From positions 1 to 48,339 of the forward strand of contig CANRBI010000003.1 in assembly GCA_947628775.1 (NCBI GenBank): DNA of 48,339 nt, written 5' to 3'. Shown here in pieces: positions 2,647-19,356 of this stretch; positions within the stretch are counted from its first letter, which is position 1; every line of letters starts with the position of its first letter. The notes beneath the pieces are model-generated. The model searched no databases and was not told the origin of the DNA. It saw only the letters and a list, made by a program, of their open reading frames with translations. The translations under genes and the position numbers were made by a program. The stretch is from an uncultured Clostridia bacterium. GTDB lineage: Bacteria; Bacillota; Clostridia; TANB77; CAG-508.

Positions 2647-2721
2647 TTTATATTGTACTATATTTGTTAAACATAGTCATTTTTTCTTTTGCTAAATTAT
2701 TAGCTTTCTTTCAAAATTTTG

Positions 2722-4050: not shown

Positions 4051-5204
4051 ACTGTTCTATTTACTATATCTGTATAACTTTGTATTATTTTTACTACTTT
4101 TACTGAAACATTAGTATCCGCATAATCTTCTGCCATTACAACTTCTTCTTTATTGTCCCTCATTGATACTGTTAGCTCTAATGCTTGTTCTACTGTTTTA
4201 TCTGTAATACCACCTATTACTACAGAGCCTTTATCTAAAACTTCCGGTCTTTCTGTAGATGTTCTGATTAGTACTCCTGCAAAACCTAACATTGCACTTT
4301 CTTCAGATAGTGTACCACTGTCTGATAGAACGCAATATGCATTTTTTTGTAATTTGTTGTAATCTATAAATCCAAAAGGTTTTAAATTTTGCACTAATGG
4401 ATGGAATTTAAAATTTCTTTTTTCTATATATTTTTTACTTCTAGGATGTGTAGAATATATAATTGGCATTTGGTATTTTTCCGCTATATCATTTATTGCA
4501 TTCATTAATGACATAAAGTTTTCTTTATTGTCTATATTTTCTTCACGATGTGCAGAAAGTAATATATATTTATTTTTTTCTAATCCTAACCTTTCTAGCA
4601 CATCACTTTTTTCTATTTTTTCACTATGGTCTCTTAATACTTCTCTCATTGGTGAGCCTGTTACAAATATTGTTTTTCCATCTAGTCCTTCTGATAATAA
4701 ATATCTTCTTGAATGTTCTGTATACGGTAAATTTATATCTGATATATGATCAACTATTTTTCGGTTTATCATTTCAGATACATTCCAATCCCAACATCTA
4801 TTCCCTGCTTCCATATGAAATATTGGAATGTGCAATCTTTTTGCACTTATAGCAGATAAACAACTATTTGTATCGCCAAGTATTAATAATGCATCTGGTT
4901 TAATTTGTTTCATTAATTTATATGAATTAGCAATTATATTTCCTACTGTTTCTCCTAAATCATTTCCTACTGTATCTAAGTATATTTCTGGCTCTTTCAA
5001 TCTTAAATCTTTAAAAAAGATACCATTTAAATTGTAATCATAATTTTGACCGGTATGAGCTAAAATACAGTCAAAATATTTTCTGCATTTAGTTATTACA
5101 GCTGATAATCTTATTATCTCTGGTCTAGTTCCAACTATAATAAGTAATTTTAATTTACCATTTTCTTTCCACTTTATTTCTTCATACTTTCCTTTTACTT
5201 CCAT
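4038..5204 (-). CDS. fnlC: UDP-N-acetylglucosamine 2-epimerase (non-hydrolysing), FnlC/Cap5G type
   Basis: 388 aa. 'LLIIVGTRPEIIRLS', 'LGDTNS' and 'HMEAGNR' are WecB/Cap5G family hallmarks. It sits in the same operon as fnlA and fnlB homologues. Confidence 0.8.
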   Translation of the reverse strand: MEVKGKYEEIKWKENGKLKLLIIVGTRPEIIRLSAVITKCRKYFDCILAHTGQNYDYNLNGIFFKDLRLKEPEIYLDTVGNDLGETVGNIIANSYKLMKQIKPDALLILGDTNSCLSAISAKRLHIPIFHMEAGNRCWDWNVSEMINRKIVDHISDINLPYTEHSRRYLLSEGLDGKTIFVTGSPMREVLRDHSEKIEKSDVLERLGLEKNKYILLSAHREENIDNKENFMSLMNAINDIAEKYQMPIIYSTHPRSKKYIEKRNFKFHPLVQNLKPFGFIDYNKLQKNAYCVLSDSGTLSEESAMLGFAGVLIRTSTERPEVLDKGSVVIGGITDKTVEQALELTVSMRDNKEEVVMAEDYADTNVSVKVVKIIQSYTDIVNRTVWGK

Positions 5205-5212
5205 ATAACCTC

Positions 5213-6943: not shown

Positions 6944-6944
6944 T

Positions 6945-8054
6945 CTATACCTCCATAAAATAAGTATCTGGTTTATTTGGGTCAAATACTTCATTTGCCC
7001 ACATTATTGTTACCATATCTGTATCGCCAATGTTTTCTATATTATGTGTGTAACCACATGGTATATCTACTATTTCTATCTTATCTCCACTAACTTTATA
7101 TTCTATCACTTCATTAGAATCTATTTTTCTAAATCTAATTATTCCCTTTCCTGAAACTACAACAAACTTTTCGTTTTTAGTATGGTGCCAGTGGTTTCCT
7201 TTGGTAATACCTGGTTTTGAAATATTTACTGAAACTTGCCCTCTTTCTTGTGTTTTAAATAATTCTGTGAAAGATCCTCTTTCGTCTATGTTCATCTTTA
7301 CTTGGTAACTAAATTCATCTTTTGGCAAATAGCTTAAATATGTGCTATATAATTTCTTTTCAAATCCATCTTGCATGTTTGGTAGTTGTAAACTTTTTCT
7401 TGAATCTCTAAAACTTTCTATTAGTTTTGCTATTTCTCCCAATTTTATTGTATGTGTTACTGGTATAAATCCATAACCTTTTTCTATGCTTGCATTTCCA
7501 TTCATAGCATTTATAAATTCTTCTAATACATCATCTATGTATGCTAAGTTCATTACTACTTCTGGGTCATTTATTTTTATTGGTAAGTTGTTTGCTATAT
7601 TGTTGCAAAATGTTGCAACTACACTGTTATAGTTTGGTCTACACCATTTACCAAATAAATTTGTAAGTCTATATACATATACTTTTACGTTATTTTCTTT
7701 AGAGTAATTAAACATTAAATCTTCGCCAGCTTTTTTAGATTTTCCATAAGGATTATCTAATTTTGCTTGTATTGATGATGTTATTAATATTGGGCTTTTG
7801 TTATTATTCTTTTTTAGGTTATCTAATAAGGTAGAAGTAAAACCAAAATTCCCTTTCATAAAGTCTTCTTCATTTTCTGGTCTATTTACACCTGCTAAGT
7901 GGAATACAAATTCACACTGCTTTGTATATTCTTCTAATTCTTGTTTAGTTGTATCTATATCGCACTCAAAAATTTCATTATAATTTCTATTTTTTAATTC
8001 TGCTACTAGATTTTTTCCTACAAAACCTTTAGCACCTGTTACTAAAATTTTCAT
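6945..8054 (-). CDS. fnlB: UDP-2-acetamido-2,6-dideoxy-beta-L-talose 4-dehydrogenase/reductase, FnlB/CapF type (SDR plus C-terminal cupin)
   Basis: 369 aa. The N-terminus 'MKILVTGAKGFVGKNL' is a Rossmann fold, and the C-terminal 'GITKGNHWHHTKNEKF' is cupin-like as in Cap5F. The gene is adjacent to fnlA. Confidence 0.8.
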   Translation of the reverse strand: MKILVTGAKGFVGKNLVAELKNRNYNEIFECDIDTTKQELEEYTKQCEFVFHLAGVNRPENEEDFMKGNFGFTSTLLDNLKKNNNKSPILITSSIQAKLDNPYGKSKKAGEDLMFNYSKENNVKVYVYRLTNLFGKWCRPNYNSVVATFCNNIANNLPIKINDPEVVMNLAYIDDVLEEFINAMNGNASIEKGYGFIPVTHTIKLGEIAKLIESFRDSRKSLQLPNMQDGFEKKLYSTYLSYLPKDEFSYQVKMNIDERGSFTELFKTQERGQVSVNISKPGITKGNHWHHTKNEKFVVVSGKGIIRFRKIDSNEVIEYKVSGDKIEIVDIPCGYTHNIENIGDTDMVTIMWANEVFDPNKPDTYFMEV

Positions 8055-8071
8055 AATTTTTCTCCAATCTT

Positions 8072-9136
8072 TTAGTTTGCTCCAAATAATTCATTTGCTC
8101 TTGTTTGAGCATTACCTGTGTTTATATTTTTTAATTCGTTTTGTATGTAATCTAGTTTTAATAGTTTTTCTTTTACTTGTTCAACATTTAATAAATCTGT
8201 ATTATTTGAATTAAATTCTGTTAGTTTATTTCTTTCTTCATTTCCTTCTACATAATATTTATCATAATTTAAGTCTCTTTTATCACATGGTACTCTATAG
8301 AAATTTCCCATATCTATTGCATGTACACATTCTTCATTTGTTAATAATGTTTCATACATTTTTTCTCCATGTCTTATTCCTATTATTTTTGTTTCTTGGT
8401 GTGCTACTCCAAACAATTCTTTTACTGCTTGTGCTAATACTTCTATTGTACAAGCAGGTGCTTTTTGTACCATAATGTCTCCTGCATTTGCATTTTGAAA
8501 TGCAAATACTACAAGTTCTACCGCTTCTTCTAGGCTCATTATAAATCTTGTCATTTTTGGTTCTGTAATTGTTAATGATTTTCCTGCTTTTATTTGTTCA
8601 ATAAATAAAGGAATAACTGAACCTCTTGAACACATTACATTTCCATATCTTGTTGCACATATTGTTGTTTTTTCAGGGTCTACTGTTCTTGATTTTGCAA
8701 CTATTACTTTTTCCATCATTGCTTTAGATGTTCCCATTGCATTTACTGGATATGCAGCTTTATCTGTTGAAAGACATATTACTTTTTTTACTCCTTCTTC
8801 AATTGCTGCTGTTAATACATTTTCTGTTCCTAGTACATTTGTTTTTACTGCTTCTAATGGAAAAAATTCACAACTTGGTACTTGCTTTAGTGCTGCTGCA
8901 TGGAAAATATAATCAACTCCGTGCATAGCATTTTTTACACTTGGTAAGTCTCTGACATCTCCTATGTAGAATTTAATTTTATCGTTGTGATATTCTTTTC
9001 TCATATCATCTTGCTTTTTTTCATCACGTGAGAATATCCTTATTTCCCCTATATCTGTATCTAAAAATCTATTTAATACAGCATGTCCAAATGAACCAGT
9101 TCCTCCTGTTATTAATAATGTTTTTCCTTTAAACAT
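8072..9136 (-). CDS. fnlA: UDP-N-acetylglucosamine 4,6-dehydratase/5-epimerase, FnlA/CapE type
   Basis: 354 aa. 'LLITGGTGSFG...IRIFSRDEKKQDDMRKEY...FYIGDVRD...HAAALKQVPSCEFFPLEAVKTNVLGTENV...CLSTDKAAYPVNAMGTSKAMMEK' is near-colinear with staphylococcal Cap5E/CapE as I remember it. Confidence 0.9.
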   Translation of the reverse strand: MFKGKTLLITGGTGSFGHAVLNRFLDTDIGEIRIFSRDEKKQDDMRKEYHNDKIKFYIGDVRDLPSVKNAMHGVDYIFHAAALKQVPSCEFFPLEAVKTNVLGTENVLTAAIEEGVKKVICLSTDKAAYPVNAMGTSKAMMEKVIVAKSRTVDPEKTTICATRYGNVMCSRGSVIPLFIEQIKAGKSLTITEPKMTRFIMSLEEAVELVVFAFQNANAGDIMVQKAPACTIEVLAQAVKELFGVAHQETKIIGIRHGEKMYETLLTNEECVHAIDMGNFYRVPCDKRDLNYDKYYVEGNEERNKLTEFNSNNTDLLNVEQVKEKLLKLDYIQNELKNINTGNAQTRANELFGAN

Positions 9137-10352
9137 TTTGTTCCTCCTCTTTTATTCTTTTATATGCTCTCTCTAAAATTTCAACTGATTTTTCAGGTAT
9201 TAATTCAGTTTCTAAATATTTTCTTCCGTTGTTACCTAGCTTAGTTCTTAAATCTTTATTTTCTATTAATCTGTCAAATTGTTGTTTGAATTCTTTTATA
9301 TTATTAGATTCACACCATAAACCAACTTCATTTTTTTCTATAATATCTTTGTAGTCTGTATTTTTATCTGTTGCAGCCATTATTGGAATACTATTTTCAA
9401 AATATGAAAGTGTTCTTGATGGTATATTTGGAATTGTAAATCTGTAGTCTAAAAATACAAACCCTATATCTGCTTGTTGCAATATCTGAGAGTATTCATC
9501 TCTAGGAATAAAATCAAATATTATTGCATTTTCTATGTTGTTTTCTTTTATGTGATTTTCTAACTTTTTCTTTTCAGTCCCTTCTCCAAAAAATGCAAAA
9601 GTTACTTTTTCATTATCTTTATATTCATCTAATATTTTTTCTATAAATGAAACTCCTTGAGGTCTTCCAAAATTTCCACCATATATTGCTAATACTGTAT
9701 TCTTTGGAATTTTATATTTTTCTTTTATATTGCTATTATCTATAATCTTTTCTTGTGTACATTTCATTGTGTTTGGAAATATTTCTAGCTTGTCCTTTGT
9801 TAAATATTTATTATGTTTTAGTAGATAATCTATATTACCTTGTGACATACATCCAATCACAGTTGCTGTTTTATACATTCTCTTTTCTTTAAATCTAAAA
9901 TACCAATATGCTGGATTAATTTTGGTCATTATTTTTAAATCTATTGCGTTTTGTGGGAATATATCCTTTTGCATTAAATATGACATTGCATCGTATTTTT
10001 TCATTGCAAACTTAATCACACTTCCTAAAGTTATCGGTGGAGCCATAAAAAGTATTAAATCAAATTGTTCATTTGGTAAAAACTCTTTTATTGCTTTTTT
10101 TAATTTACTTTGCAAAGTTATAAATGAAATTGCTTTTTCTATAATACTTACATTATATAAGTTACCTGTTTTTACTCTTAAACATTCAATTTCTCGTTCA
10201 ATAGTTATTTGGGTTTTTTCAATTTTTCTTTTTTCTGTTGCCACAACTATTTTTATATTATACTTTTTTGCTATTTCTTCTGCTAAATCTGTATATATAT
10301 TATCTCCATCTTTTTCAAATGGAAATGATGGTGTTATGTACAATACTTTCAA
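9129..10352 (-). CDS. Glycosyltransferase GT4 family (WbuB-like, possible L-FucNAc transferase)
   Basis: 407-aa GT-B-like ORF located immediately upstream of fnlA, as WbuB/Cap5L-type transferases usually are. Confidence 0.6.
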   Translation of the reverse strand: MKVLYITPSFPFEKDGDNIYTDLAEEIAKKYNIKIVVATEKRKIEKTQITIEREIECLRVKTGNLYNVSIIEKAISFITLQSKLKKAIKEFLPNEQFDLILFMAPPITLGSVIKFAMKKYDAMSYLMQKDIFPQNAIDLKIMTKINPAYWYFRFKEKRMYKTATVIGCMSQGNIDYLLKHNKYLTKDKLEIFPNTMKCTQEKIIDNSNIKEKYKIPKNTVLAIYGGNFGRPQGVSFIEKILDEYKDNEKVTFAFFGEGTEKKKLENHIKENNIENAIIFDFIPRDEYSQILQQADIGFVFLDYRFTIPNIPSRTLSYFENSIPIMAATDKNTDYKDIIEKNEVGLWCESNNIKEFKQQFDRLIENKDLRTKLGNNGRKYLETELIPEKSVEILERAYKRIKEEEQNV

Positions 10353-10363
10353 TTTTTTCTCCT

Positions 10364-11422
10364 TTATTCTCTGTATTCTGGAAAAAAGTTTGAGTTGGCA
10401 TTAAAGTCTTTTTCTTTTTTCCTTATATTCAATAATTCATTATATTTTTCTTTATTAAATATCTTTTTACCTATATAAAAACTTAATAATTCTGATTCTT
10501 TATTAAATGCTTTTTTAAATTTTAATAGTGGGCTATTATCTCCTCCATATCCTCCACCTAGATGAAATTTTTTATATCCTTTATTGCATAAATCTATTGC
10601 AGCCTCATATAATGATAGGTTGTTTGCACCTAAATTCATACACTCTGTTAGAGAACCACTTAAGTGATAATGTGCATTTTCTCCACTATATATTGCTATA
10701 AGTGAATTTATAGCTTTATTATTAGAATAAGCTGTATATATAGTTGCATTATTATTCATTTGGGTATATATGCTATTGAAAAATTCATTTGTAAAATAAT
10801 AATAATCTGTTGCATTATCTCTGTTCATTGTTTCTTTGTATAATTCTATAAATTCATCATACATTTCTTTATTAAATCCTGATTTAACAATCACTTCATT
10901 ATTTTTTGCTTTTCTAATTTTATTTCTACATTTGCTTTCCATGTCATTCCATATTTGTTCTTCATTTTCTAATTTTATATATACAGTTTTTGAAATTCTT
11001 TCTATCTGATAATTTGTATTTGTATAAAATTCATTATTATTACTTAAAGGATTTAATCTCACAAACTCTGAAATTATATTATTGTTGATACAATATTTAT
11101 CAAATTCATTAAAGAAGTATTGTAGTAATTTATCGTCTTTTTCTCCAATAATATCAACTCCTCCATAACCATAAGGAGTTATTATGTCAAAATATTTATT
11201 TTTTTCAATCTTATTTTCAAAGTTTTTATCATCTGCAATATCTCTTTTCAAATAAACATTGAAGACATAATTATCTTCGTTTTTTGCATATATTAAAAAT
11301 GGTTCTCCATCTCCATTTTTATAAAAAGCATCTACATATTCCCATTGATAATATATTTCTTTATCTTTTACTATTTCTTTCCATTTATCTTTTTCCGAAA
11401 AATTTATTATTTTATATTTCAT
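10364..11422 (-). CDS. FemAB-like / Acetyltransf_6 (GNAT-fold) family protein
   Basis: About 352 aa. 'ITPYGYGG', 'CRNKIRKA' and 'YHLSGS...LGANNLSLYEAAIDLCNKGYKKFHLGGG' resemble FemX/FemAB-type aminoacyl or acyl transferases. The start was set at ATG 11422. The track ORF begins at a TTG at 11434. Confidence 0.55.
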   Translation of the reverse strand: MKYKIINFSEKDKWKEIVKDKEIYYQWEYVDAFYKNGDGEPFLIYAKNEDNYVFNVYLKRDIADDKNFENKIEKNKYFDIITPYGYGGVDIIGEKDDKLLQYFFNEFDKYCINNNIISEFVRLNPLSNNNEFYTNTNYQIERISKTVYIKLENEEQIWNDMESKCRNKIRKAKNNEVIVKSGFNKEMYDEFIELYKETMNRDNATDYYYFTNEFFNSIYTQMNNNATIYTAYSNNKAINSLIAIYSGENAHYHLSGSLTECMNLGANNLSLYEAAIDLCNKGYKKFHLGGGYGGDNSPLLKFKKAFNKESELLSFYIGKKIFNKEKYNELLNIRKKEKDFNANSNFFPEYRE

Positions 11423-11459
11423 TATTTGTCTCAACTTCTCCTCTACTTTTGCTTACACT

Positions 11460-12509
11460 TTATAATATATTGTCTATAATGTTTATATAATAAGCTATAT
11501 CTGTAGTTGTATATCTTTGATCACATATCAAAGATAATTCTAAATTATATATATCTTTTTGGCATTTTTCTTTTAATTGTTTGGGTATTTCCCAATGGTT
11601 AGCAAAGTATATATTATTTTCTATTAATTTTATTTTTAATTCATTTCTTTTTTGGTTGTTTAAAAATATCGGTACAAATAAAGGTGTATCTTCTTTCAGA
11701 TTTATATTTTTTAAATATTCAATCTTGTTTTGATTTTTTAAATATTCATAAATTGCTTCTGCATTGTTTCTTCTTTTGTTAATAACTTCCTTTATATCCA
11801 TATTTGTTAAAATACTGTATGATTTTTGATCCATATTGTAATTTTTATAATCTTCATTTAAGATTTCTTCAGCTTTTGAAAATTCTTTCAAAAATTCTTC
11901 TTTGTTGTTTTGATTTTCATTTGATATATATATTTTTTTCTCTATCATTGCGTGTTCTTTTAAATTTATGTATTTTTTATTATCTTGTAATTTGCTTGTA
12001 TCTAAATGTTTACTAGTATTATTTATAAGTACTCCTCCACTCATAATAGGAAACCATTTTCTTAAACTTGCTACTATAAAATCTGAATTTTTATTATATT
12101 TTCTTTCAGATAATAAACTGTGTGTCATATCTTCTATTACACATACATTTTTATTTCTAAATTTTTCTATAAAATAATCCATTCCATATTGTGAAAATCC
12201 AAAATAATTCATTGCAAAGAAAATATCGCATTCTTTTTCACAGTCTATTTCGTAAATCAATTGTCCTTCTTTAAAACTAACAGTGTAAAAATCAATATCT
12301 ATATTTCTTTCTATAAAAGGGTCTATCATTGACTGACAACAATATGATGGAAAATATACTTTATTTATTTTTTTGCTATGTTGTATAGTATTTAATGCAT
12401 AATCTATGGCTGTTCTTCCTGATAGTAAAAATACTTTTTTATTATCACTTTTCACTTTTTGTTGTTCAATCTTATTATCTTCTAGCCAATACTCACTTCC
12501 TATTTCCAT
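11460..12509 (-). CDS. Divergent DegT/DnrJ/EryC1-like PLP-dependent enzyme (tentative)
   Basis: 349 aa. 'LLSGRTAIDYAL' and 'SLRKWFPI' (candidate PLP lysine) fit the layout of a fold-type I sugar aminotransferase-like protein. The similarity is weak. Confidence 0.4.
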   Translation of the reverse strand: MEIGSEYWLEDNKIEQQKVKSDNKKVFLLSGRTAIDYALNTIQHSKKINKVYFPSYCCQSMIDPFIERNIDIDFYTVSFKEGQLIYEIDCEKECDIFFAMNYFGFSQYGMDYFIEKFRNKNVCVIEDMTHSLLSERKYNKNSDFIVASLRKWFPIMSGGVLINNTSKHLDTSKLQDNKKYINLKEHAMIEKKIYISNENQNNKEEFLKEFSKAEEILNEDYKNYNMDQKSYSILTNMDIKEVINKRRNNAEAIYEYLKNQNKIEYLKNINLKEDTPLFVPIFLNNQKRNELKIKLIENNIYFANHWEIPKQLKEKCQKDIYNLELSLICDQRYTTTDIAYYINIIDNIL

Positions 12510-13042
12510 TGTTCTTTTATCTCCTCATATTGTTTTTTTAGGATTGCAATTTGCACTTCATCTATGTATCTATTGTTTTTAAATACTGACTCTTTTAATG
12601 TTCCTTCTATTTCCCAACCACATTTTTTATGTAACTTTATTGAAACTTCATTGTGTTCTAGTATAGTAGTATATAACTTATTTAATTGTAGTTCTTCAAA
12701 AGCATATTTCATTATAGTTTTTAATGTGTCTGTACCATATCCTTTTCCTCTTATTTTTTCATTGTATAATTTTATTCCATGACAAGCTTTTCTATTTTTC
12801 CAATCAATATCGGTTAATGTTTCTAATCCTATTGGACTTCCTTCTAATTCAATTATGCATCTTATACTGTCAGTATTATTTATTTGACTTTCAAACCATT
12901 TATCTTGTTCATATTTAGAAATGGGAAAACTCCATCCTCCTACTTGCCTTTCCATTGTTTCATCGTTTATCATTGTTCTTAGAAATTCTATGTCTTCTTT
13001 TTCTATTGCTCTTAAAAGAATTTTTTTACCTTTTAAATTCAT
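12500..13042 (-). CDS. GNAT family N-acetyltransferase (RimJ/RimL-like)
   Basis: 180 aa. 'IRGKGYGTDTLKTIMKYAFEEL.LNKL' is an acetyl-CoA binding motif A-like segment. The start ATG overlaps the reconstructed stop of the upstream transferase (ATGA). Confidence 0.75.
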   Translation of the reverse strand: MNLKGKKILLRAIEKEDIEFLRTMINDETMERQVGGWSFPISKYEQDKWFESQINNTDSIRCIIELEGSPIGLETLTDIDWKNRKACHGIKLYNEKIRGKGYGTDTLKTIMKYAFEELQLNKLYTTILEHNEVSIKLHKKCGWEIEGTLKESVFKNNRYIDEVQIAILKKQYEEIKEQWK

Positions 13043-13670
13043 TTTTCCACCTTTACTTTCATTCTTCTATATTCGTCAAAGTCTATAGCTTCTCCAATTC
13101 CGCGTTCTCCTATATCTTGTTTTTTTAAAACTTTTCCTATGGTTCCGTAATATTATTTTTAAATCATTTTTTAATGTTATTTGATTTATGTACTCAATAT
13201 CGTATTTAAATTTATCATCCCATGATATGTCATTTCTACCACTTATTTGTGCCAAACCTGTAAGTCCGAGGTCTAACATCGTGTCTATGTTTTTCTTCTT
13301 CTGTGTAATATGATAAGTATTGTACTCTTAATGGTCTTGGTCCTACTATTGCCATATTGCCTTTGAGGATATTGATTAATTCTGGCAATTCATCCAAACT
13401 TGTTCTTCTTAGTATTTTTCCAAATTTGGTTAAACGTTTTGAATCTGGTAATAAATTGCCATTTTCATCTTCTTCATCTGTCATTGTTCTAAATTTATAT
13501 AGTGTAAATATTTTTTCATTTTTGCCAGGACGCTCTTGTTTGAATATTGCTGGTTTGCCTAGTTTTATTCTTACTAATATGTACAAAATTAACATCACTG
13601 GACTTAAAACAATTAAAGCCAATAAACTTAATACAAAGTCCAATATTCGCTTTATGTATTTTTGATACAT
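13039..13670 (-). pseudogene. PglC/WbaP-C-type undecaprenyl-phosphate sugar phosphotransferase (priming PGT), disrupted by two +1 frameshifts
   Basis: Track ORFs 13236..13691 and 13076..13279 plus a third frame together rebuild one about 205-aa small PGT. Frame one gives 'ILDFVLSL..KPAIFKQERPGKN..F.LYKFRTM...DELPELINILKGNMAIVGPRP...HRHDVRP'. Frame two gives 'GLTGLAQISGRNDISWDDKFKYDIEY...DLKIIL'. Frame three gives 'TIGKVLKKQDIGERGIGE...*'. The frame changes lie at about 13265-13271 and about 13141-13146. Confidence 0.8.
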
Positions 13671-13683
13671 TGAACTTCCCCCA

Positions 13684-14811
13684 TTATTCAAATAATTTTT
13701 TGATTATTTCAATTATCATTTTTTGTTGTTCTTCTGTCATTTTTGTATCAGATGGTAAACATACTCCTCTTTCAAATAAGTCTTCTGATACTGCTTTTTC
13801 AGCTACTTTTATAAAGTCATATTTTTCAAATATTGGTTGTAGATGCATTGGTTTCCATACAAGTCTTGCTTCTATATTTTCTTTTTCTAGATTTTCTACT
13901 ATATCTAGTGGTTTTACTTTTGATGTTTCTTTTATTGTCATTGTTGAAAGCCAATGGTTTGATCTTTCATATTCTTTGTCTTCATTCATTTTTATTTCGT
14001 CTATTTCTTCAAATGCTTTTTTGTAGTTTTCAAATATTTTTCTTTTTTTAGCTATTCTTTCTTCTAGAACTTTCATTTGTCCTCTACCAATTCCTGCTAG
14101 TACATTGCTCATTCTGTAGTTGTATCCTATTTCTTCATGTTGATAATATCTTGCTGGCTCTTTGCTTTGTGTTGACCAAAACTTTGCTTTTTTTGTTATT
14201 TCTTCATTATTTGAAATAAGCATTCCACCACCTGTTGTAGTTATTATCTTATTTCCATTAAATGAAAGTACTCCACAATTTCCATATGTTCCTAAAAATT
14301 TATTTTTATATTTTACTCCTAGTGCTTCTGCTGCATCTTCTAAAATTGGTACATTATGTTTTTTACATATTTCACATATTTCGTCTATTTCTGAAATTCT
14401 TCCATATAAATGAACTACAACTACTGCTTTGGGATTTGGATATTTTTCAAATGCCTTTTCTAAAGCTTTTGGATCCATATTCCATGTTTGTGGTTCACTA
14501 TCTATAAATATTGGTTTTGCGTTTTCATATATTATTGGATTTACACTTGCTGAAAATGTTAAGTCTGATACAAATACATAATCATTTTTTGTAACTCCTA
14601 ATGCTTTTAATCCTAAATGTATTGCTGATGTTCCGCTTGCTAATGCGATTGCTGATTTTACTCCTAAATATTTTTTTACACTTTCTTCAAATTGATTGAT
14701 GTTTTCTCCTACTGTTGATAGCCAATTTGTATCAAATGCTTCTTTTACATATTTTCTTTCATATCCTTCATCAGACATATGTGGTGAAGCTAAATATATT
14801 TTTTCGCTCAT
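13684..14811 (-). CDS. DegT/DnrJ/EryC1/StrS family sugar aminotransferase (PglE/EpsN-like, UDP-4-keto-6-deoxy-HexNAc 4-aminotransferase)
   Basis: 375 aa. 'ASPHMSDEGYE..YV.EAFDTNW' and 'LSFNGNKIITTGGGGM' (PLP lysine region) are typical of the family. Confidence 0.85.
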   Translation of the reverse strand: MSEKIYLASPHMSDEGYERKYVKEAFDTNWLSTVGENINQFEESVKKYLGVKSAIALASGTSAIHLGLKALGVTKNDYVFVSDLTFSASVNPIIYENAKPIFIDSEPQTWNMDPKALEKAFEKYPNPKAVVVVHLYGRISEIDEICEICKKHNVPILEDAAEALGVKYKNKFLGTYGNCGVLSFNGNKIITTTGGGMLISNNEEITKKAKFWSTQSKEPARYYQHEEIGYNYRMSNVLAGIGRGQMKVLEERIAKKRKIFENYKKAFEEIDEIKMNEDKEYERSNHWLSTMTIKETSKVKPLDIVENLEKENIEARLVWKPMHLQPIFEKYDFIKVAEKAVSEDLFERGVCLPSDTKMTEEQQKMIIEIIKKLFE

Positions 14812-16676
14812 TTACTTTCCCCTCGTTCCTTATATGTTGGCACTATTTCCTTCATAACTTTTTTAATTTCTTCTTTTTGTTCATTATTACTATTTTTCAA
14901 AACTTCTCTAAGTTTTTCTAATTTGCTTTCTACCTCTTCAACAGTTATTTCTGAAGGTGGTGCTATGTATATTTTTTCATGTTTTGTTTCTTCTAAGTTT
15001 TCTTCTGCCATTAATAATTCTTCGTATAGTTTTTCTCCTGGTCTTAGTCCTGTTATTTTTATTTGTATATCTACATTTGGTTCTAATCCTGAAAGTCTTA
15101 TTAGATTTTCTGCCATATCGTAGATTTTTACAGGTTCACCCATATCTAAAACAAATATTTCTCCACCTTTTGCATAACTCATAGCTTGCAATACTAATGA
15201 TACTGCTTCTGGTATTGTCATAAAGAATCTTGTTATTTCTTTATCTGTTACTGTTACTGGTCCTCCTTGGGCTATTTGTTTTTTGAATAATGGTATTACT
15301 GAGCCATTGCTTCCTAATACATTTCCAAATCTTACTGCTGCATATTCTGTTTGACTTGTTTTATTTTTTGCTTGAACCATCATTTCGCATAAACGTTTTG
15401 TTGCTCCCATGATATTTGTGCTATTTACAGCTTTATCGGTAGAAATTAATATAAATCTTTTTACATTGAATTCGTCTGCACAGTTTACTACGTTATATGT
15501 TCCAAATACATTATTTTTGATTGCTTCTAATGGACTTGTTTCCATTAATGGTACGTGTTTATGTGCTGCTGCATGAAATACTAGATATGGTTTAAATCCT
15601 GCAAACACTTCATCTAACCTTTTTTTATCTCTTACACTTGCTACTATTGCTTGTATATCTTTTTCTGGGTAATTGTATTTTAGTTCTTGTTCTATGTCAT
15701 ATAAATTGTTTTCATATATATCTAAGATTACTAGTTTAGATGGATTGAATTTTATTATTTGTCTACATAGTTCTGAACCTATTGATCCTCCTCCACCTGT
15801 TACTAGTACTACTTTTTCTTTAATTAATTCTTTTATGTCTTTATTGTTTAATTTTATAGATTCTCTTCCTAACAAATCTTCTATCTCTACATCTCTAAAA
15901 TTATCCATTAGGGCTTTGTTTCTTATTAAATCTTGTGTACCTGGTAAGATTCTTACTTTGCACCCTGTTTGTTGACATATTTGCAATATATCTTTTCTGT
16001 CTTGGTTTGAAATGTTTGATATTGAGAATAGTATTAATTCTACATTATTCTCTTTGCATATTTCTGGTATGTCTTTTCGTGTTCCTAATATTCTGTTTCC
16101 TGATATTGCATAGTTTACTTTGTTTATGTTGTCATCTATTAGTCCTACTACATTGTATATGTCTCTAAATGTAGTTTTTAATGTTCCTAATACTATTTTT
16201 GTTGCTTCTCCTGCACCTATTATTAGTACATTTTTTCTCGCATTTTCGTTTTCATTTACTTTGTATTTTTTATATCCACCATTTAATATAAATCTTAAAA
16301 TTACTCTGTAACTTATTATTGATACTATAATTAATAATGTTGCGATTGCATTTATTCTATGATTGACAATACTATTTCCAAAGAAAATTTTTAGTATTGA
16401 AATTATTATGTAAGAAACTAAACATGCTAGTATATATACTAGATAATCGTTTCCATTTTCATATCTTGTAATATTTTTGTATGTTTTGAAAACTGTTAAC
16501 ATTGTTGTATATACTATTACTGCTGGAATTAATGTTGTTATTACTTGCTTTGCAAGTTTTGGATTAAATGCTAATGTGTTTTCTAAAATAAGTACGGTAA
16601 TACAATAAGAAACTATTATTATAAAGATATCTATTATTCTTAATATTACATTTCTATGCTTCCTTAATTCCCTCAC
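14808..16676 (-). CDS. Polysaccharide biosynthesis protein CapD/EpsC/PglF type (membrane-anchored UDP-HexNAc 4,6-dehydratase)
   Basis: 622 aa with N-terminal TM segments. Motifs include 'VLVTGGGGSIGSEL', 'VFHAAAHKHVPLME' and 'STDKAVNSTNIMGATKRL'. It has a GTG start preceded by a GGGAGA RBS and is the first biosynthetic gene of the operon. Confidence 0.85.
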   Translation of the reverse strand: MRELRKHRNVILRIIDIFIIIVSYCITVLILENTLAFNPKLAKQVITTLIPAVIVYTTMLTVFKTYKNITRYENGNDYLVYILACLVSYIIISILKIFFGNSIVNHRINAIATLLIIVSIISYRVILRFILNGGYKKYKVNENENARKNVLIIGAGEATKIVLGTLKTTFRDIYNVVGLIDDNINKVNYAISGNRILGTRKDIPEICKENNVELILFSISNISNQDRKDILQICQQTGCKVRILPGTQDLIRNKALMDNFRDVEIEDLLGRESIKLNNKDIKELIKEKVVLVTGGGGSIGSELCRQIIKFNPSKLVILDIYENNLYDIEQELKYNYPEKDIQAIVASVRDKKRLDEVFAGFKPYLVFHAAAHKHVPLMETSPLEAIKNNVFGTYNVVNCADEFNVKRFILISTDKAVNSTNIMGATKRLCEMMVQAKNKTSQTEYAAVRFGNVLGSNGSVIPLFKKQIAQGGPVTVTDKEITRFFMTIPEAVSLVLQAMSYAKGGEIFVLDMGEPVKIYDMAENLIRLSGLEPNVDIQIKITGLRPGEKLYEELLMAEENLEETKHEKIYIAPPSEITVEEVESKLEKLREVLKNSNNEQKEEIKKVMKEIVPTYKERGESK

Positions 16677-16740
16677 TATTATCTCCCACTTATTTTCAAA
16701 TTTTTGGATTCTACTGCCTTTGAATATTTTTACTTCTTTA

Positions 16741-16832
16741 TCTATGCATTTTCAGCATAGAATTGCGATATTCAACACAAATACATTAACATGTAGTTAA
16801 TGTACTCACCTATATGTTTGTTTTCATATAGG
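16741..16832 (-). ncRNA. Structured intergenic RNA candidate: three tandem stem-loops between the TnpB-like stop and the glycan operon
   Basis: Hairpin 1: 16809-16816/16825-16832, 8 bp, cctatatg/catatagg. Hairpin 2: 16782-16790/16796-16804, 9 bp, tacattaac/gttaatgta, followed on the minus strand by UUUGUGUU. Hairpin 3: 16741-16747/16755-16761, 7 bp. The function is unknown and could be a guide-RNA scaffold, an attenuator or an IS right-end relic. Confidence 0.3.
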
Positions 16833-16834
16833 AT

Positions 16835-18070
16835 TTATATTTTTATTCCGTATTTTCTTAAGCTTTCTAGTGCTACATTCATTGCGTAGTTGAAGTAGTA
16901 GTCCATTTGGTGACCATTTTCACATTTGGTTTTTAGCTTTCGGCTTTGTATTTCTCCTCCACATTTGTAGCATTTGCTTGCTTTGTCTTTTCTTGGTACT
17001 ATTGTTGATAGTATTCCTTTTCGAAATGCTTTGTAGTTTATGTAGTTTGTTATGTTTTCACGTAAATATATTGGTCTGTTTTTTTTACTTTTTGTGTAGT
17101 AGTATGCTTTGTCTTTAGTTGATAATGCTGTTGATATTACTTGTACGTGGTTTTGTATGCAGAAGTCTATTATTTTTTTGCTTATTACATGTGAGTAGTA
17201 ATTTATTATTTGGTTTGTTTTTTTGCGGTAGTTCTTGTGGTTGTTGTTTGTTTGTTGTATTTCTTTGTTGTTTAAGATGTTTCGCTTTTGTTTGTTTAAT
17301 ATTTTTGTTATTTGATTTTTGTATTCATTTCCTCCTGATACAAATAGTGTTTTTATGACTTTTCCTTGTCTGTCTATTACTACACATGTTGCTACTTTGT
17401 CTGTGTTTGAAAATGCTATTCCACATACTCGGACATTTTCGTCTTTCATTCTTTCTTTTATTGGGGTTATATCATCTATTTTTCTTTTTACTGGTATGTG
17501 TGCCATTACATAGTCTTTGTTTATTACTATTGTTGGTGATTGTATTTGGGCATTTTCTGGAAAGTTCCAGTTTTTGAATTTTGCTTTGTACCATCTCCAT
17601 TTTTCGCCATCATATAGTTTGATTTCTACTGTTCCATTTGGTTCTATGTTTTTGTACATACCTTTGTAAAATGTTGTTGAACAATTAAAAGTTGTTGCTT
17701 TGTTTGGTTTTTTTTGTTTTGGGTTTTCTTTTGCTTTTTTTGATAGTTCTGTGTATGATTTTGCTAGACCTATTGCATGATTTATTGCTGCTCGTCTTAA
17801 TTCTGTTGGAGCATTTTGATCAAAATATTCTGGTGGTCTCTCCCCTGTTAATCCTATAATTGTTAGTTTTTCTAGTTCTCTCATACATTTTTGATTTGAT
17901 AGAGTTAGTAGTTCGTCATATTTGAATATTAAATTGTAGTATATTTCTATCAGTTCATTGTATATTTGTTGAGTTAGTTTTAGATATTCTAGGTTGTTTG
18001 TGTAAAATCTTATTTTATAGGTTGTTGTGTATGTTCCACTCTTTTTATTGTTCTTGGTTGGTTCTGACAT
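16835..18070 (-). CDS. TnpB-like (IS200/IS605 OrfB / Cas12-ancestor family) protein, apparently lacking the RuvC catalytic triad
   Basis: The N-terminus 'YKIRFYTN' is a WED-like start. The RuvC-I position reads 'VCGIAFSN' instead of GIDLG. The RuvC-II position reads 'VQVISTALS' instead of hhhEDL. The zinc ribbon is 'CYKCGG..(13)..CENGH'. The RuvC-III position reads 'MDYYFNYAMNVA' instead of DxDxNAAxNI. The start was set at ATG 18070, preceded by a GGGAGA RBS. The track start at 18094 lies inside the inverted repeat. Confidence 0.65.
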   Translation of the reverse strand: MSEPTKNNKKSGTYTTTYKIRFYTNNLEYLKLTQQIYNELIEIYYNLIFKYDELLTLSNQKCMRELEKLTIIGLTGERPPEYFDQNAPTELRRAAINHAIGLAKSYTELSKKAKENPKQKKPNKATTFNCSTTFYKGMYKNIEPNGTVEIKLYDGEKWRWYKAKFKNWNFPENAQIQSPTIVINKDYVMAHIPVKRKIDDITPIKERMKDENVRVCGIAFSNTDKVATCVVIDRQGKVIKTLFVSGGNEYKNQITKILNKQKRNILNNKEIQQTNNNHKNYRKKTNQIINYYSHVISKKIIDFCIQNHVQVISTALSTKDKAYYYTKSKKNRPIYLRENITNYINYKAFRKGILSTIVPRKDKASKCYKCGGEIQSRKLKTKCENGHQMDYYFNYAMNVALESLRKYGIKI

Positions 18071-18091
18071 CTTTTTCTCCCATATTTTAGT

Positions 18092-18112
18092 CATAAAGTA
18101 TAGAACTTTACG
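18092..18112. repeat. Left 21-bp inverted repeat (IR-L): cataaag-tatagaa-ctttacg
   Basis: Its reverse complement matches 19274-19294 at 20 of 21 positions. Each copy is itself two 7-bp inverted arms around an asymmetric 7-bp spacer, and the spacers are in opposite orientation. Confidence 0.7.
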
Positions 18113-18122
18113 ACTACAAATT

Positions 18123-18151
18123 ATTTTATCATAAATTTGTTAATATTGCAA
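18123..18151 (-). promoter_or_regulatory. Near-consensus sigma-A type promoter facing out of the IR-bounded segment toward the TnpB-like gene
   Basis: The minus strand reads TTGCAA (18151-18146), a 17-nt spacer, then TGaTAAAAT (extended -10, hexamer 18128-18123). The predicted TSS is around 18115, about 3 nt from IR-L. Confidence 0.55.
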
Positions 18152-18249
18152 CATATTTCGACATTTTTTCTTCCAATTTTCACAAAAATCCTTTATATTT
18201 GAATTGCAAGTATTTCTTGTAATTCATTTAAAAGGAGGTGGATATCAAA

Positions 18250-19167
18250 ATGAGTTTGATAAATAAAAGAAAACTTTTTAAAACAGCTGTTAAAAGATGG
18301 CTTTTATTCAAAAAATTTTCTATTAAATCTTCTACATATTATAGATATAAATATATCATTAATAAATATATTATTCAATATTTTGGAAATAAAAATATAT
18401 ATTTTTTTGTAAATTATGATTTTAATATTTATATAGAACGTTTATCAAAAACTCTTTCACCTAAGACTGTGACTGATATAATTATAGTTTTAAAATCAAT
18501 TTTAAAATATATTGAGCAGAAATATAATGTACATTATAACTTAGACTTAATTTGTACTCCAAAAAAGAAGATGTGTGAAGTTAAAGTATTGAAAAAAGAT
18601 GAAGTAGAAAGACTTGAACAGTTTTGTATAAAAAGTTTTAATCCAAAATATATAGGTATATTAATTTGTTTAAATACAGGATTACGTATAGGAGAAATTT
18701 GTGCTTTGACTTGGAAAGATATAGATTTAGAGGAAAAACTGATAACTGTTAATAAAACTGTTCAACGTGTATACAAAGGAAAAAATAATACAGAAGTACA
18801 AATAGATGAGCCTAAGACTTATCATTCTATTAGAAAAATCCCTATTTCTAATAAGCTTCTAAGAGTTTTAAAAAATTTAAAAAAAGCAAAAAATTTTAAT
18901 GATGATTTATATTTTTTAACTGGTACAAATAAATTTATAGAGCCACGCTGTTATTATTATATTTTTAAAAATTGTTTGCAGTTATGTAATATTCCTAATT
19001 ATAACTTTCATGTATTACGACATACTTTTGCGACAAATTGTATAAAAATTGGGATGGATGCAAAATCTTTAAGTGAAATTTTAGGACATTCTAATGTTAG
19101 CATAACATTAAATAGATATGTTCATTCTTCTTATTCTATTCAAAAAGAGTTTTTGGATAAGCTATAA
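18250..19167 (+). CDS. Tyrosine site-specific recombinase (phage-integrase/Xer-like family)
   Basis: About 305 aa. It has an N-terminal SAM-like core-binding region. The catalytic region carries 'GLRIGEICALTWKDID' (Arg I), 'HVLRHTFATN' (HxxR) and 'LGHSNVSITLNRYVH' (His/Tyr). The ATG at 18250 lies 11 nt after AGGAGG. The track start is a GTG at 18238. Confidence 0.85.
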   Translation: MSLINKRKLFKTAVKRWLLFKKFSIKSSTYYRYKYIINKYIIQYFGNKNIYFFVNYDFNIYIERLSKTLSPKTVTDIIIVLKSILKYIEQKYNVHYNLDLICTPKKKMCEVKVLKKDEVERLEQFCIKSFNPKYIGILICLNTGLRIGEICALTWKDIDLEEKLITVNKTVQRVYKGKNNTEVQIDEPKTYHSIRKIPISNKLLRVLKNLKKAKNFNDDLYFLTGTNKFIEPRCYYYIFKNCLQLCNIPNYNFHVLRHTFATNCIKIGMDAKSLSEILGHSNVSITLNRYVHSSYSIQKEFLDKL

Positions 19168-19178
19168 CAATATAAAAG

Positions 19179-19212
19179 CCAATAGAACTAATTTTGTTTT
19201 ATTGGTTTTTTT
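19179..19212 (+). terminator. Rho-independent terminator of the recombinase gene
   Basis: A 10-bp stem ccaatagaac/gttttattgg (one G-U pair) with a 7-nt loop is followed by T7. Confidence 0.7.
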
Positions 19213-19273
19213 ACGTTTTAGGTTGTTTTTAATATCACCTTAATTTCTTTAAATATCAGTATTTATGCTGTTT

Positions 19274-19294
19274 CGTAAAGTTCTATACTTTACG
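19274..19294. repeat. Right 21-bp inverted repeat (IR-R): cgtaaag-ttctata-ctttacg
   Basis: It is the inverted partner of 18092-18112 (20/21 identical). Together they bracket a 1161-bp segment holding the recombinase gene, its terminator and the outward promoter. Confidence 0.7.
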
Positions 19295-19326
19295 AAATTT
19301 TTGATTTTAAGGTTTAATTATTTCAT

Positions 19327-19356
19327 AAAAAAAAATATATACAATTTGTATATATT
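19327..19356 (-). terminator. Rho-independent terminator after the rho-HEPN-MNT unit
   Basis: A perfect 11-bp A/T palindrome (19334-19344/19346-19356) is followed on the minus strand by a U-run (A9 on the plus strand, 19327-19335). Confidence 0.55.

What the first reader, a model, noticed from the sequence alone, without database searches (positions are those of the whole stretch)
16835..18070. TnpB-family protein whose three RuvC catalytic positions appear substituted (D->A, E->T, D->Y)
The protein has the TnpB/OrfB layout of a WED-like N-terminus, RuvC segments and a C-terminal zinc ribbon. Where family members carry GIDLG it has GIAFS. Where they carry hhhEDL it has VISTAL. Where they carry D-x-D-x-N-A-A-x-N-I it has D-Y-Y-F-N-Y-A-M-N-V, so the catalytic Asp two residues before the Asn is a Tyr. 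No Y1 (IS200) or serine (IS607) transposase is adjacent, and the gene sits in-line with a host operon. This pattern fits domestication into an RNA-guided DNA binder rather than an active IS. The residue assignments are by-eye alignment only.
Basis: partly seen in the sequence, partly recalled or inferred. Interest (0 to 1): 0.78.

Follow-up and report, generated by a model that had tools for sequence, protein, structure and literature searches.

The report
Nuclease-dead TnpB heading phase-variable capsule operon
A transposon-derived RNA-guided nuclease that has lost its cutting residues, still paired with its guide-type RNA, is the first gene switched on by a flip-flop DNA promoter driving a gut Clostridium's capsule operon, a link between domesticated TnpB and surface phase variation that I found no report of.

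Summary
Window 16835-18070 (-) encodes a 411-aa protein with a full TnpB/Cas12f fold. The loss is family-wide: none of 190 distinct relatives has an acidic residue at RuvC-I or at the aligned RuvC-II and RuvC-III positions. A sister clade of real IS605 TnpBs keeps D/E/D.

The gene is not an IS. In most of 78 related loci it sits at the head of a polysaccharide operon; in one subgroup it follows a surface-protein gene. An invertible promoter lies just upstream. In the window, 23-nt inverted repeats at 18091-18113 and 19273-19295 flank a tyrosine recombinase, and the promoter faces the gene (ON). Genomes carry several diverged paralogues, one per locus.

A ~130-nt structured RNA (16696-16836, -) lies next to the gene in at least 52 loci. 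It shows strong covariation, and its 5' half matches RNA directly after active relatives' tnpB genes.

Best reading: a new TldR-like clade, an RNA-guided DNA binder co-expressed with a phase-variable surface structure and regulating in trans. No guide-target pair was found, so the last step is inference.

The parts
16835..18070 (-). Nuclease-dead TnpB-like gene (411 aa; an alternative upstream ATG is at 18094). RuvC positions are A227/A323/Y400 in 419-aa numbering. The zinc ribbon is C375/C378/C391/H395.
16696..16836 (-). omegaRNA-derived structured RNA directly after the stop codon. It has hairpins P1 and P2 and a long-range stem P3 (UUGAAUAU/AUAUUCAA) enclosing hairpin P4. A semi-conserved tail, AG-GCAGUAGAAUCC, follows.
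   Evidence: no Rfam family
18091..18113 (.). Proximal inverted-repeat arm (recombination site TCATAAAGTATAGAACTTTACGA), 21 nt upstream of the start codon.
18123..18151 (-). Sigma-70-like promoter (TTGCAA-17 nt-TAAAAT, with TG before the -10) inside the invertible segment. It faces the dead-TnpB gene, so the switch is ON.
18238..19167 (+). Tyrosine site-specific recombinase (Phage_integrase family), carried inside the invertible segment.
19174..19210 (+). Terminator-like hairpin after the recombinase gene. It would lie between the recombinase and the operon in the OFF orientation.
19273..19295 (.). Distal inverted-repeat arm (TCGTAAAGTTCTATACTTTACGA), 22 of 23 complementary to the proximal arm.
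63..16676 (-). Co-oriented polysaccharide-biosynthesis operon downstream. The genes annotated here (10364-16676) are a CapD-like dehydratase, a DegT aminotransferase, a sugar transferase and acetyltransferases. ORFs from 63 to 10352 share the strand but were not annotated.

Best explanation
The gene encodes a domesticated, nuclease-dead descendant of an IS200/IS605 TnpB of the 'Aq_aa04' (PF27142) type. This is a new TldR-like clade.

Shown:
- All three RuvC catalytic residues are replaced, here and across the family.
- The full TnpB/Cas12f fold and the zinc ribbon are kept.
- An omegaRNA-derived structured RNA is kept next to the gene under structural selection.
- The pair lies immediately downstream of an invertible promoter. 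In the window this promoter is carried with a tyrosine recombinase and points at the gene (ON).
- The pair is co-oriented with a phase-variable surface-structure operon. Diverged paralogues sit at separate such loci in one genome.

Inferred: when the switch is ON, the protein and RNA are made together with the capsule enzymes and assemble into a ribonucleoprotein. This complex binds DNA without cutting it and acts in trans as a transcriptional regulator. It would coordinate this surface locus with others, most likely by repression. The logic resembles FljA in Salmonella, UpxZ in Bacteroides and the phage fliC-TldR.
For: Dead triad:
- Among 190 distinct members, RuvC-I is never D or E, RuvC-II is P/A/T/S/M/Q, and RuvC-III is Y/F/A/R/H/S/W/G.
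- In a separate alignment of 50%-identity representatives, five dead-clade members keep one acidic residue, yet every one still lacks at least two of the three.
- Lower-scoring full-length representatives are mostly D/E/D (a few lack the third Asp), while the high-scoring clade is dead.
- One active relative sits beside a Y1 transposase. Active relatives reach the NCBIfam TnpB cut-off.

Fold: pLDDT 88.5; the best PDB matches are Cas12f, TnpB and dCas12f.

RNA:
- 36 pairs, 19 with compensatory changes in 14 sequences.
- 94% of cells are paired against 34-45% for slid controls, and 31 of 36 pairs covary in 30 sequences.
- It is found on the gene's strand, next to the gene, in 52 loci.
- The 5'-half model also hits directly after tnpB in 7 of 23 active-relative loci.

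Switch:
- An inverted-repeat pair with one arm within about 240 nt of the start (most 5-110 nt) was found in most of the loci with enough upstream DNA.
- The inner segment is inverted between related genomes: L012 vs L013 is 82% identical in reverse complement and 64% in the same orientation; L055 vs L066 is 76% and 60%.
- The promoter faces the gene in 7 of 7 loci with a divergent recombinase. It lies at the far end in all 10 co-oriented loci.

Context:
- Polysaccharide genes lie downstream in most of 78 loci.
- A subgroup has an Mpi-like serine invertase, a small inverton, a surface-repeat protein, then the dead TnpB and RNA as the last gene. This favours a trans-acting product.
- Within-genome paralogues are 44-91% identical.
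Against: - No guide-target pair was found in the window, in each locus's own upstream region, around the inverted repeats, or across loci of multi-copy genomes.
- The sequence after the scaffold (AG + TTAT(A/T)AAAAA, TTTCCAAATT or GCAGTAGAAT) is semi-conserved among paralogues and genera. It is not locus-specific, as a discriminating guide would be.
- In two loci (L007, L014) the RNA lies upstream of the gene, unlike canonical omegaRNAs.
- The RNA is about half the length of the active relatives' omegaRNA.
- DNA binding, repression and expression were not and could not be tested here.
- Only about 20 kb per locus was available, so genome-wide targets could not be searched.
Confidence: 0.5

Rival explanations
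1. Cis-acting operon factor. The protein binds the structured RNA within the nascent operon transcript and promotes read-through or stability of the long polysaccharide transcript. This would be a guide-less, locus-specific antitermination role, analogous to UpxY, RfaH or LoaP with their leader elements.
For: The gene and RNA lie between the promoter and 15-20 kb biosynthesis operons in most loci. The RNA can sit 5' or 3' of the gene but is always in the leader region. No variable guide or target was found. Stem sequences differ between paralogues while the structure is kept, which could give cognate protein-RNA specificity.
Against: In the serine-invertase subgroup the gene and RNA are the last elements of a short surface-protein operon, with nothing long to antiterminate. 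What is conserved is RNA-gene adjacency, not RNA-biosynthesis-gene adjacency. No TnpB or Cas12 relative is known to act this way (my knowledge).
Confidence: 0.2
2. Switch-control factor. The ribonucleoprotein binds at or near the recombination sites and biases or locks inversion, acting like a directionality or hysteresis factor for the recombinase.
For: An inverted-repeat pair lies close upstream of the gene in most loci that have enough upstream DNA, usually 5-110 nt from the start codon. Recombinases of two unrelated families (tyrosine and serine) accompany the same protein-RNA pair.
Against: Repeat half-sites differ by clade (TCGTAAAG, TCGCTAAG, TCGCATTA, TCGCTTAT and others). The RNA tail does not co-vary with them, and no complementarity was found within 50 nt of either arm.
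Confidence: 0.12
3. It is still a nuclease, using acidic residues at non-canonical positions, as in some Fanzor and TnpB lineages with a relocated catalytic residue.
For: About half of the family has D or E one residue after the RuvC-II position. Five representatives keep one of the three residues.
Against: The window protein has L324 at that position. RuvC-I is never acidic in 190 members, and RuvC-III is acidic in only 2 of the ~45 representatives aligned separately. The only near-invariant acidic residues (E75, D208, E392) lie outside the RuvC strands.
Confidence: 0.03
4. A decaying IS remnant or pseudogene, present at the operon head by chance.
For: Public annotation calls members 'transposase' or 'zinc ribbon domain-containing protein'. 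One locus (L016) has the gene split into two ORFs.
Against: More than 130 representative clusters at E <= 1e-30 are mostly full length. Fourteen columns are invariant across 42 sequences that go down to 26% identity. The context is the same in most of 78 loci across many genera. A covarying partner RNA is retained.
Confidence: 0.02

Closest known systems
TldR (TnpB-like nuclease-dead repressors; fliC-, oppF- and csrA-associated clades; Wiegand et al. preprint 10.1101/2023.11.30.569447; Xiao et al. preprint 10.64898/2026.09.22.753285)
   Same: It descends from TnpB with a deteriorated RuvC triad and has lost its transposon context. It has gained a stable host-gene association and keeps an adjacent omegaRNA-like RNA. 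In the fliC case, TldR is likewise co-encoded with an alternative surface antigen.
   Different: The context differs: invertons plus polysaccharide or surface-protein operons, with no fliC, csrA or opp genes within 10 kb. It derives from a different TnpB lineage (PF27142 type, nearer Cas12f). The C-terminal zinc ribbon is intact rather than truncated. Each genome carries several diverged paralogues. No guide-target pair was identified, and the RNA can lie 5' of the gene.
IS200/IS605 TnpB with omegaRNA (e.g. ISDra2 TnpB, ISFba1 TnpB; the PF27142-type active relatives P0162, P0166 and P0169 found here)
   Same: The fold and domain order are the same. Motifs such as RRAAI, YxGMYK and W-x-W are shared. 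The 5' modules of the RNA (AAAKCCU-P1-AGG-P2) are homologous.
   Different: There is no DED triad, no TnpA and no IS ends. Copies within a genome are not identical. The RNA is about half as long and lacks the right-end hairpin region.
Nuclease-dead Cas12f working with an ECF sigma factor (Bacteroidetes; PMC13472631; PDB 9n9c and 9n9m)
   Same: It is a compact, dead Cas12f/TnpB-fold protein used for transcription control. It is a structural match (ranks 19 and 29).
   Different: There is no CRISPR array and no sigma-factor cluster among the recurrent neighbours. That system activates transcription by recruiting a sigma factor, and there is no evidence for that here.
Phase-variable surface loci with a co-expressed trans regulator: Salmonella hin-fljBA (FljA represses fliC), and Bacteroides capsule loci with invertible promoters plus UpxY/UpxZ and the Mpi invertase (my knowledge)
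   Same: An invertible promoter sits in front of a surface-antigen operon whose first gene or genes are regulators. As in Hin, the recombinase is carried inside the invertible segment. There is one paralogous regulator per locus. The serine invertases of the subgroup best match the Mpi family.
   Different: The regulator here is a TnpB-derived protein with an RNA partner. It is not a small repressor protein or a NusG paralogue. The hosts are Clostridia and Lachnospiraceae.

Membership tests
TnpB (IS200/IS605 RNA-guided endonuclease) | WED-REC-RuvC-zinc ribbon (TNB) fold | tested here: met
   AF2 model pLDDT 88.5. Foldseek against the PDB gives E = 1e-14 and TM about 0.6 to Cas12f and TnpB over the full length. 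A family profile hits PDB TnpB 9nzp at 2e-11.
TnpB (IS200/IS605 RNA-guided endonuclease) | Reaches the curated family HMM cut-offs | tested here: not met
   NCBIfam guided_TnpB scores 30.5 bits against a cut-off of 100. Pfam TNB scores 22.1 against 26.3. There is no OrfB_IS605 hit. Active relatives score about 100 bits.
TnpB (IS200/IS605 RNA-guided endonuclease) | RuvC D-E-D catalytic triad | tested here: not met
   A227/A323/Y400 in the window protein. None of 190 members has an acidic residue at any of the three aligned positions, and every dead-clade representative lacks at least two of the three.
TnpB (IS200/IS605 RNA-guided endonuclease) | Lies in an IS with TnpA and/or defined ends, as repeated near-identical copies | tested here: not met
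   No transposase cluster appears among the recurrent neighbours of 78 loci. Within-genome copies are 44-91% identical. The one 99% pair (L001/L002) has different upstream flanks and no IS ends were seen.
TnpB (IS200/IS605 RNA-guided endonuclease) | omegaRNA encoded at or after the 3' end of the gene | tested here: met
   A covarying RNA starts at the stop codon. Its 5' half is homologous to RNA directly after active relatives' tnpB. Exceptions: it lies 5' of the gene in L007 and L014.
TldR (TnpB-like nuclease-dead repressor) | TnpB descendant with an inactivated RuvC site and a conserved non-transposon gene association | tested here: met
   triad; inverton plus surface-structure operon
TldR (TnpB-like nuclease-dead repressor) | Adjacent guide RNA whose 3' guide matches a TAM-flanked site in a target promoter | tested here: inconclusive
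   The scaffold is present. No match beyond chance was found in the window or in the held loci. Whole genomes could not be searched.
TldR (TnpB-like nuclease-dead repressor) | Represses transcription by RNA-guided DNA binding | not testable with these tools
   Needs ChIP-seq or RNA-seq in a carrier strain, or a reporter assay.
TldR (TnpB-like nuclease-dead repressor) | Belongs to a published clade (fliC-, oppF- or csrA-associated) | tested here: not met
   No CsrA or flagellin is encoded within 10 kb in 78 loci plus the window. No opp or ABC peptide transporter association was seen. The two papers do not mention polysaccharide or capsule contexts. Supplementary lists were not available.
Type V CRISPR effector (Cas12f / dead Cas12f) | Adjacent CRISPR array and cas genes | tested here: not met
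   There is no repeat array within window 12000-24000. The neighbours are a recombinase, a HEPN/nucleotidyltransferase pair, Rho and sugar enzymes.
Invertible promoter switch (inverton) | Inverted repeats flanking a promoter, next to a site-specific recombinase | tested here: met
   23-nt arms with 22 of 23 complementary. A tyrosine recombinase lies between them and the promoter is inside. The same layout occurs in most related loci that have enough upstream DNA.
Invertible promoter switch (inverton) | Both orientations occur | tested here: met
   The segment is inverted between related genomes, and promoter position tracks orientation in 17 loci. Both states were not seen within the window's own population: six assemblies all show ON.

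The most novel reading that the evidence does not exclude
The protein-RNA pair works without a programmable guide. The omegaRNA-derived scaffold is part of the operon transcript. The dead TnpB binds it co-transcriptionally and acts on RNA polymerase or the transcript as a locus-specific read-through or licensing factor. Paralogue-specific stems give each surface locus its own cognate pair. This would be a role for the TnpB/Cas12 lineage that does not depend on base-pairing with a target.
Probability: 0.15. Interest if true: 0.9.

Novelty: new variant of a known kind. Interest (0 to 1): 0.8.

Why it matters
Only three TldR clades have been characterised, and their authors state that the roles of most dead-TnpB clades are unknown. 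This clade is widespread in gut Clostridia and Lachnospiraceae, including Blautia, Eubacterium callanderi, Anaerotruncus, Bariatricus and Acetivibrio. It occurs as several paralogues per genome and is wired to invertible promoters that drive capsules and surface proteins. If the ribonucleoprotein regulates in trans, it would be an RNA-based counterpart of UpxZ or FljA, coordinating which surface coat a commensal displays. That bears on immune recognition, phage susceptibility and colonisation. It also offers a compact dead-nuclease and RNA pair of about 400 aa and 130 nt, with many natural paralogous variants. Several carriers are cultured strains, so the question can be tested directly.

Tried and rejected
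1. Guide-target search. I took the 16-26 nt after the last conserved stem and searched four places. These were the window, each locus's own 1.8 kb upstream, 50 nt either side of both repeat arms, and all held loci of multi-copy genomes (14-mers with up to 2 mismatches; exact 13-mers over the RNA plus 200 nt). Only AT-rich chance matches and matches between paralogous RNAs turned up.
2. A cross-locus 'each guide targets the other loci' model. It is weakened because the tails are nearly identical among paralogues in one genome.
3. Known RNA family. There was no Rfam hit at the gathering threshold or at E <= 10.
4. A full-length RNA model against active relatives found nothing with default filters. 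A 5'-half model worked.
5. Single-sequence search against the PDB found nothing, so a family profile was needed.
6. Checking the published TldR lists was not possible, because no supplements are held.
7. The mobile-element reading (recombinase plus TnpB as a transposon) was rejected. The repeats enclose only the recombinase and promoter, and many loci have 130-450 bp invertons with no recombinase.
8. L001 and L002 as two orientations of one locus was rejected. Their spacers share orientation and the flanks differ, so they are two separate loci.
9. Defence-system membership: PADLOC gives only weak Cas12f hits.
Full report
**What is at the coordinates**

The minus strand carries an ORF at 16835..18094 (419 aa). 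It has a GGGAG ribosome-binding site, homologues begin there, and gene callers give the identical 411-aa product in six other assemblies. Residue numbers below use the 419-aa frame.

Sequence evidence for TnpB membership is weak. Pfam Cas12f1-like TNB scores 22.1 bits, below its 26.3 cut-off. NCBIfam guided_TnpB scores 30.5 against 100, and Cas12f2 scores 48 against 450. A single-sequence search of the PDB finds nothing.

A profile of 42 family members reaches solved TnpB and Cas12f chains at E = 2e-11 to 1e-8. An AlphaFold2 model built on that alignment is confident (pLDDT 88.5, pTM 0.75). Its best PDB matches over the full length are Cas12f from several species, ISFba1 TnpB and a nuclease-dead Cas12f (Foldseek E down to 1.5e-14, TM about 0.6). 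The fold assignment is sound.

**The catalytic triad**

A search of 1.84 billion representative proteins with the family profile found 134 clusters at E <= 1e-30. The high-scoring ones are the family itself. The lower-scoring full-length ones carry 'CSVDLN', 'VFEHL' and 'GNADxNA', which is an intact D/E/D triad.

These active relatives are genuine IS elements. One of them, P0166, sits beside a Y1 transposase. Two reach the NCBIfam TnpB cut-off. They share the N-terminal PF27142 'Aq_aa04' domain with the window protein.

Aligning them with the window protein gives an unambiguous map:

| RuvC motif | Window | Active relatives | Change |
|---|---|---|---|
| I | RVCGIAFSN | RLCSVDLNI | D -> A227 |
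| II | VQVISTALS | ATVIVFEHL | E -> A323 |
| III | GHQMDYYFNYAMN | GRRGNADLNAARN | D -> Y400 |

The second is off by one residue (A323, not T322), which changes nothing.

Across 190 distinct family sequences the picture is the same:

- RuvC-I is A/Q/V/S/R/I/T/M/Y/C/L/K and never acidic.
- RuvC-II is P/A/T/S/M/Q.
- RuvC-III is Y/F/A/R/H/S/W/G.

In a separate alignment of 50%-identity representatives, five dead-clade members keep one acidic residue. Every one still lacks at least two of the three. The zinc-ribbon ligands C375, C378, C391 and H395 are invariant or nearly so. Loss of the triad is therefore an old, fixed property of a conserved family. It is not a lesion in one copy.

**Not an insertion sequence**

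A scan of one genome per species returned 78 loci from Clostridia, Lachnospiraceae, Blautia, Eubacterium callanderi, Anaerotruncus, Acetivibrio, Bariatricus and others. The closest, at 72% identity, are rabbit-gut MAGs.

Clustering the flanking ORFs shows no transposase among the recurrent neighbours. In most loci the gene is followed, on the same strand, by polysaccharide-biosynthesis genes:

- sugar transferase
- GT1 and GT2 glycosyltransferases
- CapD-like dehydratase and epimerases
- DegT aminotransferase
- UDP-sugar dehydrogenase
- ABC-2 exporter

In the window, co-oriented ORFs run from 16676 down to 63. Those from 10364 to 16676 were annotated as such enzymes.

Many genomes hold several copies. 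At least five are in one Acetivibrio MAG, four in MGBC128194 and three in E. callanderi FD. These copies are 44-91% identical to each other, so they are diverged paralogues and not IS copies. No csrA, flagellin or opp genes occur within 10 kb. This separates the clade from the three published TldR contexts.

**An invertible promoter just upstream**

In the window, 23-nt inverted repeats lie at 18091-18113 and 19273-19295, with 22 of 23 positions complementary. They enclose a tyrosine recombinase gene (18238-19167, +) and a sigma-70-like promoter. The promoter is TTGCAA-17-TAAAAT with an upstream TG, at 18151..18123 on the minus strand, and it points at the dead-TnpB gene.

Each arm is itself a small palindrome (TCGTAAAG-N7-CTTTACGA), as expected for a tyrosine-recombinase core site.

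The same layout recurs. In most of the loci with enough upstream DNA, a repeat pair has its proximal arm within about 240 nt of the start codon, and most arms lie 5-110 nt away. The spacer is either 130-450 bp (promoter only) or 1.1-1.6 kb (with the recombinase).

The recombinase is found in either orientation relative to the gene. The inner segment is truly inverted between related genomes. For L012 vs L013 it is 82% identical in reverse complement against 64% in the same orientation, while the gene is 87% identical. For L055 or L075 vs L066 the figures are 76% and 60%.

Promoter position tracks orientation:

- In all 7 loci with a divergent recombinase, a promoter faces the gene and none lies at the far end.
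- In all 10 co-oriented loci, a promoter sits at the far end and would face the gene after inversion. In 9 of these nothing faces the gene now; L005 has a candidate at both ends.

The window is therefore in the ON state. All six independent assemblies of this locus show the same state.

A subgroup uses a different recombinase for the same logic. An Mpi-like serine invertase is followed by a small inverton with 22-nt perfect repeats 72 nt apart. Then come a large secreted repeat protein, the dead TnpB as the last gene, and the RNA.

**A partner RNA derived from the omegaRNA**

Directly after the stop codon lies a conserved element of about 130 nt (window 16696-16836, minus strand). It contains two hairpins (P1, P2) and a long-range stem (UUGAAUAU/AUAUUCAA) enclosing a third hairpin.

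- RNAalifold on 14 sequences predicts 36 pairs, 19 of them with compensatory changes.
- On 30 model-aligned sequences, 94% of cells pair against 34-45% when partners are slid. 31 of 36 pairs show double changes, and 0 of 500 shuffles reach any observed measure. The caveat is that this alignment was fitted to the model.
- No Rfam family matches.
- Covariance models find the RNA, always on the gene's strand and adjacent to the gene, in 38 loci (full model) and 52 loci (5' half). These include 30%-identical homologues and the serine-invertase subgroup.
- The 5'-half model also hits directly after the tnpB gene, on the right strand, in 7 of 23 loci of the triad-intact relatives. L100 scores E = 5e-5 and L088 scores 9e-4; the others are weaker but at the same position.

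The RNA is therefore a shortened descendant of the ancestral omegaRNA. The active elements' RNA runs about 230-260 nt to the IS right end.

There are two departures from the canonical layout. The RNA does not overlap the ORF. In L007 and L014 it lies upstream of the gene, between the repeat and the start codon.

**What could not be shown**

In TnpB and TldR systems the guide follows the last conserved scaffold stem. Here that position holds AG plus a short semi-conserved stretch:

- GCAGTAGAATCC in the window group
- TTTCCAAATT or ATGCCAAATT in related rabbit Clostridia
- TTAT(A/T)AAAAA in Lachnospiraceae
- TTTTAAAT in E. callanderi

The next gene's ribosome-binding site follows 25-45 nt later. 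This stretch is nearly the same among paralogues within a genome, so it cannot by itself distinguish one locus from another.

I found no match beyond chance in the window, in each locus's own upstream region, around the repeat arms, or across held loci of multi-copy genomes. Repeat half-sites differ by clade without any matching change in the tail. Only about 20 kb per locus was available, so targets elsewhere in these genomes are untested.

**Mechanism**

- Shown: a nuclease-dead, fold-intact TnpB descendant; a co-evolving omegaRNA-derived RNA; placement as the first product of an invertible promoter, or the last product of a short phase-variable surface-protein operon; one diverged paralogue per surface locus.
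- Inferred: the two assemble into a ribonucleoprotein that binds DNA without cutting. It is made only when its surface locus is ON and acts in trans on other loci.

I favour the trans-regulator reading (0.5) for three reasons:

- The conserved unit is the gene-RNA pair, not its position relative to the biosynthesis genes.
- In one subgroup it ends a short operon, where read-through control has no purpose.
- The logic matches known phase-variation circuits (FljA, UpxZ) and the fliC-TldR precedent.

The main rival is a guide-less, cis-acting operon factor (0.2). A switch-locking factor is less likely (0.12). A cryptic nuclease and a decaying remnant are unlikely (0.03 and 0.02).

**Comparison and novelty**

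It works most like a TldR and meets the structural definition: a dead TnpB, a new host-gene association and an adjacent omegaRNA-like RNA. The defining guide-target and repression features are untested or inconclusive.

It is not one of the published clades by context. Sequence-level placement against them was not possible. It comes from a PF27142-type TnpB lineage whose closest structural matches are Cas12f.

Full-text searches found no paper linking TnpB-like proteins to invertons, capsule loci or Lachnospiraceae surface variation. Public annotation calls these proteins 'transposase' or 'zinc ribbon domain-containing protein'.

I rate it a new variant of a known kind, with high interest. It ties domesticated RNA-guided proteins to phase variation of commensal surface structures, and it is testable in cultured strains.

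Noticed in passing
window 19372-20063 (-): A HEPN-domain protein (133 aa) and a nucleotidyltransferase (106 aa) overlap by 31 nt. This is the usual layout of a HEPN/MNT toxin-antitoxin pair. It sits between the distal repeat arm and rho.
   Followed up: no
window 40553-40902 (-): Bacterial RNase P class A RNA (294 bits). Together with rho (20076-21431) and sporulation genes seen in sister assemblies, it marks the window as chromosomal DNA of a spore-forming Clostridium.
   Followed up: no
L007 9825-9981 and L014 1045-1193: In these two loci the partner RNA lies upstream of the dead-TnpB gene, between the proximal repeat and the start codon. Everywhere else it lies downstream.
   Followed up: partly
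window 16702-16717 (-); L008 and L009 inside the long-range stem: A short GNRA-type hairpin motif (GGAGUAAUCC or GAGAAAUCU) lies inside the long-range stem in most rabbit-Clostridia loci. In the window group a similar motif (GCAGUAGAAUCC) lies after the stem. Whether this is a shifted homologous element or part of a guide is unclear.
   Followed up: partly
L048, about 400-560 nt upstream of the dead gene's start: The 3' end of a canonical triad-bearing tnpB (translation ...HDRDINAAKNIL...) lies just upstream of the dead-TnpB locus. That locus shows a promoter and a single repeat site facing the gene, and no second arm was detected.
   Followed up: no
L016 89-601 and 579-1322: The dead-TnpB gene is split into two overlapping ORFs. 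This is either a frameshift or an assembly error, and it is the only broken copy noticed among 83.
   Followed up: no
L001-L006, L011, L016, L046 and others; L081-L084: Many contigs start or end at the dead-TnpB gene, the recombinase or the repeat. This would be expected if assemblies break at an invertible or paralogous segment. It hints at mixed orientations in the sampled populations.
   Followed up: no
L079 9586-10380, compared with window 13684-14811: In one sister assembly the DegT aminotransferase is called as 264 aa instead of 375 aa. In the window the sugar-transferase ORF (13236-13691) is 151 aa, against a 227-aa median for its cluster. These may be strain-level disruptions or start-codon miscalls in the capsule operon.
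   Followed up: no
L018 and L027: Each locus holds two dead-TnpB copies about 5 kb apart. Each copy follows a different secreted or pilin-like surface protein gene, with an Mpi-like serine invertase and a small inverton between them.
   Followed up: partly
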